DNA of 64,000 bases from a virus (Duplodnaviria; Caudoviricetes): the IMG/VR virus record IMGVR_UViG_2857429247_000001, positions 1 through 64,000 of that record; one strand, 5' to 3'. A program made the position numbers and the translations under genes. This document shows positions 31,758-35,678 of the stretch, piece by piece. Under the pieces are notes generated by a model, which was not told where the DNA came from, did no database searches, and saw nothing but the letters and a program-made list of their open reading frames with translations. The first letter of the stretch is position 1, and the number at the start of each line of letters is the position of its first letter.

Positions 31758-32243
31758 ATGAAGGCGGGTGAGACGATGGCGGCCGCTCAGCCCTCCCCCC
31801 CGCTGCGGGGGAGGGTGATGGAGGCGGCGATCGACCACGAGGCGCTCGTCGCCACCTGGCGCGCGGGCCATGCGCAACTCGACCCGGCGCGAGCGCCGGC
31901 ACCGGGGATCATCAACGTCGAGCCGGGCCCGGTCGGCCGGGCCGGCGTGTGGGGCTTCGTCCACGAGATGATGGGCCGGTTCATCGAGGAGCGCGGCACG
32001 GAGGCCGCCGCCCTCGGCTGGACGACGCTGGCACTGTTCGGCGTGCACCGGACCGCGGGCGCAATGCGCGTGGACGCAACGGGGGCGCTGATCACGCTCT
32101 ATCCGCGCAAGGTGATTGCGATCTCGGCGACCGAGATCAAGCTGAGCCGTCGCGGCGTGGTGCAGACCTATCGCGGGCTGGTGAACCCGGCGGCGAGCGT
32201 TCCGGTGTGGGACTTCCGCTATCCGGAGAAGGCCAAGCCATGA
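31758..32243 (+). CDS. Hypothetical protein
   Basis: AAALGWTTLALFGVH segment; ATGA-coupled to next gene. Confidence 0.6.
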   Translation: MKAGETMAAAQPSPPLRGRVMEAAIDHEALVATWRAGHAQLDPARAPAPGIINVEPGPVGRAGVWGFVHEMMGRFIEERGTEAAALGWTTLALFGVHRTAGAMRVDATGALITLYPRKVIAISATEIKLSRRGVVQTYRGLVNPAASVPVWDFRYPEKAKP

Positions 32244-32584
32244 CGCCCGCGGAGGTAATCGCCGCCCTCTCGGGCAAGCGCATGCGCTGCTCGACCGAGC
32301 GCGCGTTGCAGGACGATATCGAATCGGTCCTGCGCGCCGCCGGGCGCCCGTTCGAGCGCGAGCGCTGGCTCGGCGCCGAGACGGGGCGCATCGACTTCCT
32401 CGCCGGCCGCACGGGCGTCGAGGTGAAGGTGAAGGGCGGCGCCCGGGAGATCCACCGGCAGGTGCTGCGCTACTGCGGGCATCCGGCGATTGACGCCGTG
32501 GTGCTCGCCACGACCAAGGCGGTGAGCCTGCCGCCCATGCCCAAACCCGTCCACATCCTCGACCTGTCGCGAGCCTGGCTTTAA
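32240..32584 (+). CDS. PD-(D/E)xK-type nuclease
   Basis: E..LQ, RIDFL, GVEVK, Q..RY motifs; stop supplied by IS end. Confidence 0.7.
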   Translation: MTPAEVIAALSGKRMRCSTERALQDDIESVLRAAGRPFERERWLGAETGRIDFLAGRTGVEVKVKGGAREIHRQVLRYCGHPAIDAVVLATTKAVSLPPMPKPVHILDLSRAWL

Positions 32585-32780
32585 CATCTTCCCCGCCCTG
32601 AAGGACGGGGATTTTCGGAGATCGTGAGATCTCGTCCAGTTGACGCTTCACAGGGCCGCTTATGCAAACCCTCCACGTCCAGCAACGCGCTGTTCGCACG
32701 CCGTCTAATATTAATCGCCGCGTTGATGTCGGCGTGGCCGGCGTGGCCGCAACTGATGCATCGGAAGACCGCTTGGCTCT
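32561..32780 (-). ncRNA. Predicted TnpB omegaRNA/reRNA (boundaries approximate)
   Basis: Known architecture: scaffold overlaps tnpB 3' end/RE; guide from flank AGCCAGGCTCGCGACAGGTC. Confidence 0.6.
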
Positions 32781-33813
32781 CGCGGCTCCTCGCATCGACC
32801 ACACCACACGCCGCGCAGGTCTGCGACGTGAACTGCGCGGGAACGGTGACAACCTGACCGCCGCGCGCCTCCATCTTGTACGTCAGGATCGTCGCGAACT
32901 GGTGCCAGCCCGCGTTGAGGATCACCCGGTTCAGACCGGCCTTCTGGCGGACGTTGCGGCCGGGCTCTGCGAGGGTGCCTTTCGCGCTCGCGGTCATCGC
33001 GCGTGTGTTCAAGCCCTCCAACACCGCCGTCCCGAACCGGCGGCTGATGTCGAGGGCGGCGCGGTGGTGGAAGTCGCGCCGGATGCGGGCCTGCCGGGCC
33101 TGGAGGCGGGCGACGCGGGCCAGCGCGCGGCGCCTCCGGTTCGACCCGCGCTTGCGCCGAGAGGCAACCCTCTGCGCCTTGCGCTTCCTCGCCTCGATCC
33201 GTTCCAGGCTCTCGGGCAGGCGCATGGTCTCGCCCGTGGACAGGGCGAGCGTGGTCGTCACACCGCGGTCTATCCCGACCACCTCGGCGCTCGGGGCGGG
33301 CGCCGCGTGCTCGACTTCGCAGGTGAAGGCGACGTGCCAGCCGATCGGATCGAGGGAGACGGTGGCGTTCTTGACCGTGCCCTGGATCGGCCGCGTGTCG
33401 CGGAACCGAACCCAGCCGATCTTGGGCAGGCGCACGGCCGACCACTTCGCGCTGAGCCGCCGCACCGCGACCTCTCGCCCGGGAAAGCGGAAGCTGTCGT
33501 CCTCACCACGCCGACGCTGGCGCGGGAACGCGGCGCGACCCGTGAAGAAGTTCTGGAACGCCCGGTCGAGGTCCCGCAGGGCCTGCTGCTGACACGAGAC
33601 GTAGACGGCCCGCACCCAATCGAACTCGGCACGCAATCGGGTGAGGTCGGCGGCTTGGCCGACGTACCCGAGGCGGTGCTTGCGACCCCAGATCGCTCTC
33701 TGTTCGAGGGCGAGGTTGTAGGTCAATCGGCACACGCCCGCGAACTGCCGGAACAGGTCTTCCTGCTCGGGCAACGGATCCAGTTTGAACCTGTATCCAC
33801 GTGCGATGATCAC
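32581..33813 (-). CDS. tnpB: RNA-guided endonuclease TnpB
   Basis: N-terminal HTH (YRFKLDP), RuvC GIDRG / VLEGL / HADINAA, zinc finger CAAC...CISC. Confidence 0.95.
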   Translation of the reverse strand: MIIARGYRFKLDPLPEQEDLFRQFAGVCRLTYNLALEQRAIWGRKHRLGYVGQAADLTRLRAEFDWVRAVYVSCQQQALRDLDRAFQNFFTGRAAFPRQRRRGEDDSFRFPGREVAVRRLSAKWSAVRLPKIGWVRFRDTRPIQGTVKNATVSLDPIGWHVAFTCEVEHAAPAPSAEVVGIDRGVTTTLALSTGETMRLPESLERIEARKRKAQRVASRRKRGSNRRRRALARVARLQARQARIRRDFHHRAALDISRRFGTAVLEGLNTRAMTASAKGTLAEPGRNVRQKAGLNRVILNAGWHQFATILTYKMEARGGQVVTVPAQFTSQTCAACGVVDARSRESQAVFRCISCGHAGHADINAAINIRRRANSALLDVEGLHKRPCEASTGRDLTISENPRPSGRGRC

Positions 33814-33911
33814 GGTCTGTTCCTATCACGGGGCGGGCATCTCACCAACCATTCATGCCGCGCAGACGTGCGGCCTCCTCGGCCTGAAGGCCGAGGTTTC
33901 AGGAGTTGCCG
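32581..33911 (-). mobile_element. IS200/IS605-family TnpB-only (IS1341-like) element
   Basis: Subterminal hairpins CCTCGGCCttcaGGCCGAGG (LE) and CCCCGTCCttcaGGGCGGGG (RE); removal restores ...TGG CTA TGA/ATG overlap; no TSD. Confidence 0.9.
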
Positions 33912-35678
33912 ATGAGCGCTGCCCTATCCCTGTCCCTGCCCGTGCCGGCCCCGGCGCGCACCTACGGCACCCTGACGCTCGACCGTGACCGGAGCGAGTG
34001 GATCCTCGACGGGATGGACCCGCACGTCGCGATCCGGTTGAAGAACGCCTTCCCCCGGGTGTCGAAGACCGGCACCCAGCCGTTCCAGTTCCGCGACACG
34101 CCGGAGGGCTGCGCCGATCTCGACTGGTTCCTCTCCCGCTATCCGATGCGCATGCTCGACGGCGACGCCTCGGCGCTCCAGGCCGGCCGCAGGCGGTTCG
34201 AGGCGGACATCGCCGAGGCGGAGCGCCTGCTCCTGCCGGACTACACGCCGCCGCCCTTCGCCGGCTTCCGAGAGGGACTCGCGCCCTATCCGATGCAGAC
34301 GGTGGCGATCGAACTGGCGCGGATGCGCGGGCGCCTGCTCCTCGGCGACGACCTGGGCCTCGGCAAGACCACGGTGGCGCTGGGCGCGATCCTGGAGCCG
34401 CGCTTGCTGCCCGCCGCCGTGGTGGTGCAGTCGCACCTCGGGCCGCAATGGGAGAAGCGGGCGCAGGTCTTCACGAACCTACGGGTGCACCGGATCAAGG
34501 GGACCAAGCCCTACGACCTGCCGGAGGCCGACCTCTACATCTTCACCTACTCCCAGCTCGCCGGCTGGGTGAGCGTGTTCGAGGTCGTGCGCTGGCCGAC
34601 GGTGATCTATGACGAGATCCAGGAACTGCGCACGGGCGGGAAGGCCGCGAAGTACCGGGGCGCGGAGGTGCTGAGCCGGCACGCCGGCGCGCTGCGCCTC
34701 GGGCTCTCGGCCTCGCCGGTCTACAACTACGGCGACGAGATCTTCCCGATCCTGGAGCTGCTCGAGAAGGGCGCGCTCGGCTCCTACGACGAGTTCACGC
34801 GTGAATGGTGCAGCTACAACGGGCGGCGCTACATCGTTGACGATCCGGACGCGCTCGGGACCTACCTGCGCGAGCAGCACCTGATGCTTCGGCGCCTGCG
34901 CGGCGGCCGGCCGGTGAACACGATCGTTCGTCACGTCCCCTACGACGAGGAAATCGCGGCCGAGAGCGAGGACCTCGCCCGGGCGCTGGCGATCAAGGTG
35001 CTGAGCGGTTCGTTCGTCCAGCGGGGCCAGGCGGCGCGCGAGCTCGACATGCTGGCCCGGCAGGTGACCGGCGTGGCCAAGGCGCGGCACGTCGCGGCGG
35101 TGGTGCGGATCCTGCTCGAGAGCGGCACGCCGGTGGTGCTCGCGGGCTGGCACCGCGAGGTCTACGAGATCTGGTGCGAGGCGCTGAAGGATTTCGGGCC
35201 GGAGCTCTACACCGGCACGGAGTCGGCCTCGCGCAAGGAGAAGAGCAAGGATCGGTTCGTCTCCGGCGAGACCGATCTCCTGATCATGTCGCTGCGCTCC
35301 GGCGCCGGCCTCGACGGGCTGCAGGCGCGGTGCTGCACGGTGGTGTTCGGAGAACTGGACTGGTCGCCGAAGGTCCACGAGCAGCTCATCGGCCGCGTCG
35401 ACCGGCCGGGCCAGTCGGCCGAGGAGGTGACGGCGATCTACCTCGTCACCGACCAGGGCTCCGACCCGGTGGTGACCGGGGTGCTGGGCCTGAAGGGCGC
35501 CCAGGCGCGCGGGATCACCGACCCGCTGGCGGGTGTCGAGCACGTCTATTCCGACGAGAGCCGCGTCCGCCTGCTGGCTGAGCGCTACCTCGCCGCCCAG
35601 GGGCAGACGACGCCGCAGGCCGTGCCGAGCGCGACACCGCAGACCGTGACGCTGATGGAGGTTGGTGATGGACGATGA
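33912..35678 (+). CDS. SNF2-related helicase
   Basis: DDLGLGKT, YDEIQE, LSASP, GAGLDGLQ, ELDWSP..HEQLIGRVDRPGQ. Confidence 0.9.
   Translation: MSAALSLSLPVPAPARTYGTLTLDRDRSEWILDGMDPHVAIRLKNAFPRVSKTGTQPFQFRDTPEGCADLDWFLSRYPMRMLDGDASALQAGRRRFEADIAEAERLLLPDYTPPPFAGFREGLAPYPMQTVAIELARMRGRLLLGDDLGLGKTTVALGAILEPRLLPAAVVVQSHLGPQWEKRAQVFTNLRVHRIKGTKPYDLPEADLYIFTYSQLAGWVSVFEVVRWPTVIYDEIQELRTGGKAAKYRGAEVLSRHAGALRLGLSASPVYNYGDEIFPILELLEKGALGSYDEFTREWCSYNGRRYIVDDPDALGTYLREQHLMLRRLRGGRPVNTIVRHVPYDEEIAAESEDLARALAIKVLSGSFVQRGQAARELDMLARQVTGVAKARHVAAVVRILLESGTPVVLAGWHREVYEIWCEALKDFGPELYTGTESASRKEKSKDRFVSGETDLLIMSLRSGAGLDGLQARCCTVVFGELDWSPKVHEQLIGRVDRPGQSAEEVTAIYLVTDQGSDPVVTGVLGLKGAQARGITDPLAGVEHVYSDESRVRLLAERYLAAQGQTTPQAVPSATPQTVTLMEVGDGR

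What the first reader, a model, noticed from the sequence alone, without database searches (positions are those of the whole stretch)
32561..33920. TnpB IS targets the ATGA stop/start overlap and repairs both neighbours
Seen: removing 32581-33911 restores GCC TGG CTA TGA GCG, a nuclease stop overlapping the SNF2 ATG. On the element strand the target is TCAT (reverse of ATGA). The right end TTAA gives the upstream gene an in-frame stop that preserves its last residue (CTT TAA) and is also tnpB's own stop; the left end places AGGAG 6 nt before the SNF2 ATG. Guide tetramers at the hairpin feet (GAAA for TCAT, AAAT for TTAA) follow the IS608 pairing scheme. RuvC D-E-D is intact; predicted TAM TCAT, guide AGCCAGGCTCGCGACAGGTC. 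Inference: a TCAT specificity plus built-in stop and RBS makes translational-coupling junctions safe harbours, and TnpB could drive homing into IS-free sibling phages.
Basis: partly seen in the sequence, partly recalled or inferred. Interest (0 to 1): 0.72.

Follow-up and report, generated by a model that had tools for sequence, protein, structure and literature searches.

The report
TnpB insertion sequence at gene junction
A 1.3-kb transposase-less jumping element that encodes the RNA-guided nuclease TnpB sits exactly in the four-base ATGA stop/start overlap of two phage genes and leaves both reading frames whole. The element type and its ATGA target are already known, but related elements turn out to sit at such gene junctions far more often than chance.

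Summary
Window 32581-33911 (minus strand) is a 1,331-bp tnpA-less IS200/IS605 element. It has an intact tnpB (410 aa; RuvC D182/E266/D362), subterminal hairpins and a conserved omega-RNA-like 3' region.

- **Ends.** Related copies lose homology exactly at TCAT| and at ...GATGTTAA|.
- **Empty site.** A sibling phage (L148) carries the predicted empty site, TGG CTA TGA overlapping the helicase ATG.
- **Guide tetramers.** GAAA and AAAT fit the published IS608 pairing rule for TCAT and TTAA.
  - Of 35 reconstructed empty sites of TCAT-targeting relatives, 13 look like stop/start overlaps, against 5% of control ATGA sites (P about 6e-9).
  - 41 of 81 distinct left-end tips carry a Shine-Dalgarno-like core facing outward, 4-7 nt from the ATG in 34 of them. 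Shuffled tips give about 12.

The element recognises TCAT, not junctions: 22 of 35 sites are elsewhere. Survivorship and adaptation cannot be separated in silico. The "nuclease" label of the upstream gene is unsupported, and homing is untested.

The N|ATGA target was published in 2016 (PMC4810608). This scan has noted the same theme on other DNA. Verdict: a new member of a known kind, with a family-wide pattern worth testing.

The parts
32581..33911 (-). Whole insertion sequence, 1,331 bp. A tnpA-less (non-autonomous) IS200/IS605 element.
   Evidence: Homology with 12+ related copies ends exactly at both ends. Empty site in L148. Contigs of independent runs bridge both junctions.
32581..33813 (-). 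tnpB, 410 aa, GTG start. Its TAA stop is the last three bases of the element.
   Evidence: Pfam HTH_OrfB_IS605 + OrfB_IS605 + Cas12f1-like_TNB. ISDra2 TnpB 8h1j/8bf8 at E 2.5e-34, with D182/E266/D362 and CxxC at 333 and 352 aligned.
32581..32760 (-). Omega-RNA-like conserved structured region overlapping the 3' end of tnpB and the right end. The strongest helices lie in 32581-32703.
   Evidence: Alignment A1 of 20 copies: 44 predicted pairs, 13 with compensatory changes. Sub-threshold Rfam hits to sot0042 and HgcC at the same place.
32581..32614 (-). Right end. Guide AAAT (32611-32614), hairpin CCCCGTCC-TTCA-GGGCGGGG (32591-32610), 10-nt tail AAGATGTTAA ending in the cleavage site TTAA (32581-32584).
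   Evidence: The rule from PMC3201880 predicts AAAT for TTAA. The cleavage site lies 10 nt 3' of the hairpin foot, as in IS608.
33877..33911 (-). Left end. 11-nt tip, guide GAAA (33897-33900), hairpin CCTCGGCC-TTCA-GGCCGAGG (33877-33896).
   Evidence: The rule predicts GAAA for TCAT. The AG 3' of the hairpin fits the IS608 base triplets.
33901..33905 (+). AGGAG on the strand of the flanking genes, 6 nt before the helicase ATG. It lies inside the left-end tip.
   Evidence: An SD-like core occurs in 41 of 81 distinct tips of the family against 12.2 +/- 3.0 in shuffles. Function not tested.
33912..33915 (+). ATGA, the complement of the target and predicted TAM TCAT. It is the start codon of the helicase gene and the former stop of the upstream gene.
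32561..32580 (-). Flank 3' of the right end. Predicted 20-nt guide part of the omega RNA (AGCCAGGCTCGCGACAGGTC).
   Evidence: Inferred from the TnpB mechanism of ISDra2; not measured.
32237..32584 (+). Upstream phage gene (about 115 aa counted from the ATG at 32237). Its last sense codon CTT and its stop TAA are completed by the element's TTAA.
   Evidence: phrog_5928, unknown function. Homologues directly precede the helicase gene in 17 related phage contigs.
33912..35678 (+). SNF2-type helicase gene, 588 aa.
   Evidence: Pfam SNF2-rel_dom; Helicase_C just below its cut-off. phrog_62 DNA helicase. The N-terminus is conserved from the ATG/GTG onward in siblings.

Best explanation
**What it is.** A non-autonomous IS200/IS605 insertion sequence carrying tnpB and its omega-RNA region but no tnpA.

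**How it got there.** A Y1 (HUH) TnpA supplied in trans integrated it by single-strand 'peel and paste' immediately 3' of TCAT on the bottom strand. That TCAT is the complement of the ATGA in which the upstream gene's stop overlapped the helicase gene's start.

**Why both genes stay whole.** The cut falls between xx and ATGA, and the right end finishes in TTAA. The upstream gene now reads xxT TAA (Leu kept), and the helicase gene keeps its ATG. The displaced translational coupling is probably replaced by the AGGAG in the left-end tip, 6 nt upstream.

**Why the junction.** TnpA recognises only TCAT, through the GAAA guide beside the left hairpin. The junction position is best explained by a filter. 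In a gene-dense phage almost every other TCAT insertion is harmful, whereas this geometry is nearly harmless. An outward Shine-Dalgarno-like tip that is common in this lineage helps.

**What TnpB would do.** TnpB with an omega RNA ending in the flank sequence would cut the IS-free allele (TCAT + AGCCAGGCTCGCGACAGGTC) and favour retention or copying by recombination.

**Shown:** anatomy, boundaries, target, empty site, pairing rule, family-wide enrichment.

**Inferred:** trans-mobilisation, SD function, nuclease activity, homing.
For: **Element and tnpB**
- Domains.
- Catalytic residues.

**Boundaries and target**
- Homology breaks at TCAT| and GATGTTAA|.
- Empty site in sibling L148, with GTGA overlaps at the same junction in L150 and L153.
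- The filled form is bridged by contigs of independent runs, and other contigs break exactly at 32581.

**Transposase**
- The 1.7-kb relatives carry a divergent Y1 tnpA (HVHLLV, SPSYFV motifs). This copy lacks it.

**Guide rule**
- Pairing is c2-g1, c1-g2, c4-g4, with triplets (PMC3201880).
- It is met at both ends here.
- It co-varies in relatives: CAAT/TGAA and GAAT/TCAA; GAAT/TCAA, AAAT/TTAA and AAAG/TTAC.

**Family-wide pattern**
- TCAT flanks 92 of 121 hairpins that carry a GAAA guide.
- The flank ATG opens an ORF of 100 codons or more in 45/85 against 22% of controls.
- 13/35 reconstructed sites look like overlaps against 85/1718 controls, P 5.6e-9.
- A native SD-like motif precedes the target ATG in 14/35 against 11% of controls, P 1e-5.
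- One junction lies after a terminase large-subunit C-terminus, and one between tandem MBL-fold genes.
- SD-like left-end tips: 41/81 against 12.2 in shuffles and 4 on the other strand, with 4-7 nt spacing in 34.

**Omega-RNA-like region**
- Conserved structure with 13 compensatory pairs.
Against: - No expression, cleavage or transposition data exist.
- No sigma-70-like promoter or terminator consensus was found in or near the element, so how the helicase gene is transcribed across 1.3 kb of antisense tnpB is unknown. Polar effects cannot be excluded.
- The closest relatives' tips are weaker (AAGGA in L025) or not SD-like (L132).
- SD presence is not linked to start-codon context (28/52 against 8/19, not significant).
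- ORF length is an imperfect proxy for genes in 68-70% GC DNA. L141 counted as an overlap and L023 as a start although codon-position GC argues against both.
- Only one copy lies in this record. No tnpA donor is known for the phage's host.
Confidence: 0.8

Rival explanations
1. **Pure survivorship, no adaptation.** Integration is equally likely at any exposed TCAT, and natural copies pile up at junctions and start codons only because other insertions are purged. The in-frame stop and the SD-like tip are by-products of transposase chemistry and of an internal RNA/DNA stem.
For: - No extended target motif beyond TCAT.
- 22 of 35 sites are not overlaps, and some are intragenic.
- T-Y-A-N right ends also occur in relatives that target TGAA. 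The T and A positions are structurally required in IS608.
- In several subfamilies the CCTCC tip is complementary to an AAGGAGG 3' of the hairpin (listing).
- SD presence is independent of context.
Against: - The SD-like core is three to four times as frequent as in shuffles, is strand-specific (41 against 4) and sits at SD spacing.
- In the 'AGGGATAGCG' subfamily the CCTCC lies outside the paired stretch.
- The TGAA-targeting outgroup tip has no such core.
- If insertions in front of an ATG silenced the gene, they should be purged like intragenic ones. Instead they are the commonest class.
Confidence: 0.4
2. **True regional targeting.** TnpA integration is biased toward gene starts and junctions, for example because these AT-richer, easily melted or ribosome-free stretches expose single-stranded TCAT. 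The enrichment would then exist before selection acts.
For: - The size of the enrichment.
- IS608-type integration needs single-stranded targets (PMC3201880, PMC5027513).
Against: - No sequence signal outside TCAT.
- Not testable with natural, already-selected copies.
- At co-oriented genes the TCAT lies on the antisense strand, which is not the lagging-strand template. This rests on my own reasoning and was not tested.
Confidence: 0.15
3. **Retained by the phage as a weapon or drive.** TnpB with its omega RNA cuts IS-free competitors or siblings during co-infection, so the phage benefits beyond simply tolerating the element.
For: - Intact nuclease, full-length ORF and conserved omega-RNA-like structure despite the loss of tnpA.
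- The same filled form occurs in runs of several studies.
- The homing role of TnpB is published for other elements (PMC10055086).
Against: - No IS-free site with a perfect guide match was found in IMG/VR.
- Sibling L148 differs from the guide at 2 of 20 positions, one of them at position 6.
- Intact TnpB with lost tnpA is the common state of the family and needs no special explanation.
Confidence: 0.15
4. **Assembly artefact.** A chimeric contig joins a bacterial IS to phage DNA.
For: The record is a metagenome-style virus contig, and its only IS copy is this one.
Against: - Contigs from independent runs bridge both junctions with 0-4 differences.
- The junction is exact to the base, and both flanks match the sibling's contiguous sequence.
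Confidence: 0.01

Closest known systems
IS605B-1_MA, IS605B-1_HM and ISC elements with the N|ATGA target (Kapitonov, Makarova, Koonin 2016, PMC4810608)
   Same: - tnpB-only IS605-type elements inserted precisely upstream of ATGA.
- Termini 5'-TT...CG-3' on that strand, exactly as here (TTAA...GCCG|ATGA).
- Empty sites shown by genome comparison.
   Different: - That paper does not mention start codons, stop codons or Shine-Dalgarno motifs (0 occurrences).
- Its hosts are cyanobacteria and gammaproteobacteria. This copy lies in a high-GC phage whose nearest IS relatives are in Methylobacterium.
IS608 of Helicobacter pylori (IS200/IS605 family)
   Same: - Subterminal hairpins.
- 4-nt guides 5' of each hairpin foot that pair with the cleavage sites by the same scheme.
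- Right cleavage site 10 nt 3' of the hairpin.
- No target duplication.
   Different: - The target is TCAT, not TTAC; the right end is TTAA, not TCAA.
- 15 nt, not 19, lie between the left cleavage site and the hairpin.
- In autonomous relatives tnpA is divergent from tnpB and reads out through the left end. This copy has no tnpA.
ISDra2 TnpB with omega RNA (PDB 8h1j, 8bf8, 8exa)
   Same: - About 400-aa TnpB aligned over residues 6-393 at E 2.5e-34, with the catalytic D/E/D and zinc-finger cysteines conserved.
- The RNA region overlaps the 3' end of the gene and the right end.
   Different: - Rough identity by eye is about 30%.
- Predicted TAM TCAT against TTGAT.
- Activity not tested here.
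IS200 5' stem that hides the tnpA ribosome-binding site
   Same: Some relatives have a CCTCC in the left-end tip that can pair with a top-strand AAGGAGG just 3' of the hairpin. This resembles an anti-SD stem.
   Different: - In the window copy the predicted outer stem does not involve an SD, and its fold is not better than shuffles (z -1.35).
- The CCTCC lies outside the stem in other subfamilies.
Gene-less IS200/IS605 derivatives (PATE/MITE-like)
   Same: Short relatives with the same ends and the TCAT flank: L135 (304 bp), L188 (252 bp), L201 (245 bp).
   Different: The window element keeps a full tnpB.

Membership tests
IS200/IS605 family | Subterminal imperfect hairpins at both ends, with no terminal inverted repeats | tested here: met
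   Left hairpin 33877-33896 and right hairpin 32591-32610. Both have 8-bp stems with a TTCA loop and are conserved in relatives.
IS200/IS605 family | Insertion 3' of a fixed tetra- or pentanucleotide without target duplication | tested here: met
   TCAT flanks 12 of 12 mapped close copies and 92 of 121 hairpins with the same guide. The empty site in L148 shows no duplication.
IS200/IS605 family | Cleavage sites recognised by 4-nt guides 5' of the hairpin feet (IS608 scheme) | tested here: met
   GAAA/TCAT and AAAT/TTAA obey c2-g1, c1-g2, c4-g4. The pairs co-vary in relatives. This is sequence evidence only.
IS200/IS605 family | Y1 HUH transposase TnpA | tested here: not met
   Absent from this 1,331-bp copy. 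Present, divergent from tnpB, in the 1.7-kb relatives L131, L021, L022 and L020. This copy is therefore a non-autonomous (IS1341-type) derivative.
TnpB RNA-guided nucleases | RuvC D-E-D triad and zinc-finger cysteines | tested here: met
   D182, E266, D362, CxxC 333-336 and 352-355 align with ISDra2 TnpB. Pfam domains lie above their cut-offs.
TnpB RNA-guided nucleases | Omega RNA encoded at the 3' end of tnpB and the right end, with its guide taken from the flank | tested here: inconclusive
   Conserved structure with 13 compensatory pairs. Rfam hits fall below threshold. No RNA data show the transcript.
TnpB RNA-guided nucleases | TAM-dependent DNA cleavage (TAM equal to the transposon target) | not testable with these tools
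   TAM TCAT is inferred from the target site only.

The most novel reading that the evidence does not exclude
The TCAT-targeting branch of IS200/IS605 has become a gene-junction specialist.

- Its target is the complement of ATG-A.
- Its right end always restores a stop (TAA or TGA) for a gene that ended in xxA TGA.
- Its left-end tip carries an outward Shine-Dalgarno.
- In autonomous copies tnpA reads out through the left end and stops 9-11 nt from the tip, so the flanking gene becomes a translationally coupled downstream cistron of tnpA.

This would let the elements colonise gene-dense genomes such as phages at almost no cost. There, TnpB homing could spread them among co-infecting relatives.
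Probability: 0.4. Interest if true: 0.7.

Novelty: new member of a known kind. Interest (0 to 1): 0.5.

Why it matters
The element itself is ordinary. What it points to is a simple, testable rule for how a very abundant class of selfish elements, the ancestors of Cas12, can live inside tightly packed operons and phage genomes without breaking genes.

The rule has three parts: a target that is the mirror image of ATG-A, an end that rebuilds the stop, and an end that may rebuild the ribosome-binding site.

If the outward Shine-Dalgarno is functional, three things follow:
- IS605 insertions rewire translation of the next gene instead of silencing it.
- Genome annotation of such junctions would be affected.
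- The view of TnpB elements in phages as homing drives would gain support.

The natural co-variation of guide and cleavage tetramers seen here also extends the IS608 pairing rule to new targets. That rule can be used to predict TnpB TAMs from sequence.

Tried and rejected
- **Other copies in the own 113-kb record:** none, so the ends could not be defined from within the genome.
- **tnpA in L002:** Pfam on two plus-strand ORFs gave nothing. A six-frame read then showed tnpA on the other strand, interrupted in L002.
- **Rfam:** only sub-threshold hits.
- **Promoter and terminator consensus scan:** nothing.
- **Right ends in distant relatives:** two regular-expression attempts failed. The guide-rule search worked.
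- **Burkholderiaceae relatives:** they target TGAA, not TCAT, so they could not serve as an extra sample. They were kept as an outgroup.
- **Pfam on 10 upstream and 10 downstream ORFs of putative overlaps:** only L170 and L275 gave domains. The rest are unannotated phage or metagenome proteins.
- **Link between SD-like tips and start-codon context:** not significant.
- **Left-end RNA fold of the window copy:** not better than shuffles.
- **Public runs:** the contigs of four runs showed no joint across the element, that is, no empty allele. Contigs cannot show absence.
- **Exact empty site with a perfect guide match in IMG/VR:** none.
- **Helicase relatives in 146 Methylobacterium genomes:** none at E 1e-50. 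The host is therefore inferred only from the IS relatives and the GC content.
- **Rejected idea, nuclease-dead TnpB repressor:** the catalytic triad is intact.


Full report
**1. What is in the sequence**

The + strand reads ...cga gcc tgg ct|t taa at 32570-32584. AGGAG lies at 33901-33905 and ATGA at 33912-33915.

A 410-aa ORF runs on the minus strand from 33813 to 32581. Its stop is the complement of 32581-32583, so the palindromic TTAA at 32581-32584 ends both this ORF and the + strand ORF 31949-32584.

The minus-strand protein carries HTH_OrfB_IS605, OrfB_IS605 and Cas12f1-like_TNB domains above Pfam cut-offs. It aligns with ISDra2 TnpB (8h1j, 8bf8) at E 2.5e-34. D182, E266, D362 and two CxxC pairs sit in the catalytic and zinc-finger positions.

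The downstream gene (33912-35678) is an SNF2-type helicase. The upstream gene matches only phrog_5928 of unknown function, so 'nuclease' is not supported.

**2. Boundaries and empty site**

The record (an IMG/VR virus contig of 113,385 bp, 68.5% GC) holds one copy only.

Close relatives (74-84% TnpB identity) occur in three viral contigs and in Methylobacterium genomes. Their similarity to the window stops exactly after GATGTTAA at the right end. At the left end it stops exactly before CGG..., which is preceded by TCAT. All 12 close copies with both ends mapped have TCAT 5' of the left end.

Sibling phage L148 (helicase 81% identical, upstream protein 71%) carries the uninterrupted junction gca tgg ct^ATGAGCGCC. 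L150 and L153 have a GTGA overlap at the same place.

Contigs from independent public runs bridge both junctions of the filled form. Other contigs lose homology exactly at 32581.

The element is therefore 32581-33911, 1,331 bp.

**3. Family anatomy**

Relatives of about 1.7 kb carry a Y1 transposase gene on the opposite strand, with HVHLLV and SPSYFV motifs. It reads out through the left end and stops 9-11 nt from the tip. The window copy and three others of 1,331 bp have lost it. The window copy is therefore non-autonomous.

An alignment of the last 220 nt of 20 copies gives a consensus structure of 44 pairs, 13 of them with compensatory changes. It lies where omega RNAs lie. Rfam gives only sub-threshold hits to sot0042 and HgcC there.

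**4. The guide rule**

In IS608, the cleavage tetranucleotide c1-c4 pairs with the guide g1-g4 that lies 5' of the hairpin foot (PMC3201880):
- c2 pairs with g1, c1 with g2 and c4 with g4.
- c3 = A is unpaired.
- The two bases 3' of the hairpin form triplets.

Applied to this element:
- TCAT predicts GAAA and TTAA predicts AAAT. Both are found.
- The bases 3' of the hairpins (AG on the left, AA on the right) fit the triplets.
- The right cleavage site is 10 nt from the hairpin, as in IS608.

Natural co-variation supports the rule:
- Burkholderiaceae relatives have CAAT with target TGAA and GAAT with TCAA.
- Other relatives have GAAT/TCAA, AAAT/TTAA and AAAG/TTAC.

**5. Testing the 'safe harbour' idea**

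*The window's own genome.* It has 593 ATGA/TCAT sites and only about four other ATGA stop/start overlaps by a crude caller. A random hit would land on an overlap about 1% of the time.

*A wider sample.* A search for the GAAA guide plus left hairpin returned 53 viral and more than 120 metagenome stretches. Of 121 distinct hits, 92 have TCAT 9-20 nt upstream.

*Start codons.*
- On the opposite strand, the ATG opens an ORF of at least 100 codons in 45 of 85 cases. Control ATGA sites in the same flanks reach 22%.
- Many of these are recognisable N-termini: resolvase-, FeoB-, LysR- and PHP-like proteins and signal peptides.

*Right ends.* The guide rule located right ends in about 28 loci.

*Stop/start overlaps.*
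- Together with the 12 close copies, this gave 35 reconstructed empty sites.
- 13 sites have at least 80 open codons ending at the TGA and at least 60 from the ATG.
- Only 85 of 1,718 control sites meet the same criteria (P 5.6e-9).
- Of the remaining sites, 8 look like starts only, 3 like stops only and 11 like neither.

*Independent checks.*
- A native SD-like motif precedes the target ATG in 14 of 35 sites against 11% of controls.
- One upstream ORF is the true C-terminus of a terminase large subunit.

*Caveat.* ORF length over-calls genes in high-GC DNA. L141 and L023 are probably misclassified. The control was scored by the same criterion.

**6. The two 'repairs'**

*The stop.* On the gene strand the right end reads comp(c4)-T-comp(c2)-A. 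With the cut before ATGA, a gene ending xxA TGA becomes xx-N T-R-A whenever c2 is a pyrimidine.
- All three right-end types seen (TCAA, TTAA, TTAC) give TGA or TAA.
- The geometry is therefore general.
- The TGAA-targeting outgroup has TCAA as well, and T and A are structurally fixed in IS608. The stop is most simply a lucky by-product.

*The ribosome-binding site.*
- 41 of 81 distinct left-end tips have GGAG, GAGG or AGGA on the outward strand. The other strand has 4 and shuffles give 12.2 +/- 3.0.
- The core ends 4-7 nt from the ATG in 34 of the 41.
- Its presence does not depend on whether the copy sits at a start, so it is a lineage trait.

The window's AGGAG is stronger than the tips of its nearest relatives: AAGGA in L025 and none in L132. 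This may reflect adaptation after insertion, but that is inference.

In some subfamilies the CCTCC tip can pair with a top-strand AAGGAGG 3' of the hairpin. A different primary role is therefore possible. In the window copy the predicted outer stem is no better than shuffles.

**7. What remains open**

- No promoter or terminator consensus lies in or near the element. How the helicase gene is transcribed is unknown.
- Homing is inferred from published work on other elements (PMC10055086).
- No IS-free site with a perfect guide match was found.
- L148 differs from the predicted guide at positions 6 and 15.
- No helicase relative was found in 146 Methylobacterium genomes, so the host is inferred only from the IS relatives.

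**8. Comparison with what is known**

- The N|ATGA target of tnpB-only IS605 and ISC elements, with termini 5'-TT...CG-3', was published in 2016. That paper does not mention start or stop codons or Shine-Dalgarno motifs (PMC4810608).
- The 2023 homing preprint does not discuss them either.
- Earlier notes of this scan describe the same theme on other DNA. Their claims were re-tested here independently, not taken as evidence.

**9. Verdict**

- The element is a new member of a known kind.
- The family-wide junction bias and the outward SD-like tip are the parts worth an experiment.

Noticed in passing
L002:2104-4230 (IMGVR_UViG_2918999278_000001): A 2,123-bp relative whose divergent tnpA is interrupted by about 400 bp. 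The insert encodes a 145-aa plus-strand ORF with an HNH-like motif (DHIVPL...NLQYLTKSEN). It may be a nested insertion.
   Followed up: partly
L135:1595-1834 region; L188 and L201: Gene-less derivatives of 304, 252 and 245 bp with the same ends and the TCAT flank (MITE/PATE-like). L188 sits in a putative ATGA overlap.
   Followed up: partly
L175, L206, L213 (viral contigs): A single GAAA-guided hairpin is preceded by TCAT+14 nt and followed directly by AGCAGTCAA. One hairpin may be serving as both ends of a roughly 55-nt mini-element.
   Followed up: no
L136-L140 and L115-L118, L121 (Methylobacterium genomes): Right-end remnants ending in TTGA or TTAG lie at the same flank in several genomes. 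These look like old insertions, fixed and decaying, that are inherited vertically.
   Followed up: no
L030-L038, L050 (Trinickia, Paraburkholderia): A multi-copy relative (40% TnpB identity) with left guide CAAT, target (T)TGAA and right end GAAT/TCAA. It is a natural test of the IS608 guide rule.
   Followed up: partly
L195 (IMGVR_UViG_2974771932_000001), 3341, 5904, 11750: Three left ends of one TCAT-targeting element type lie within 12 kb of a single viral contig.
   Followed up: no
whole record G000: ATGA occurs about twice as often as base composition predicts: 294 and 299 per strand against about 150 expected.
   Followed up: no
window 32300-34200 in public runs: The stretch, IS included, is held at 0.6-0.95 of sampled words by runs of 8 studies filed under several different organism labels. 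A drinking-water metagenome is among them. The phage or its host may be widespread or a common contaminant.
   Followed up: partly
window 32569-32673 (-): Sub-threshold Rfam matches to sot0042 and HgcC lie exactly at the right end. From my own knowledge, both families were described at the 3' ends of tnpB genes.
   Followed up: partly
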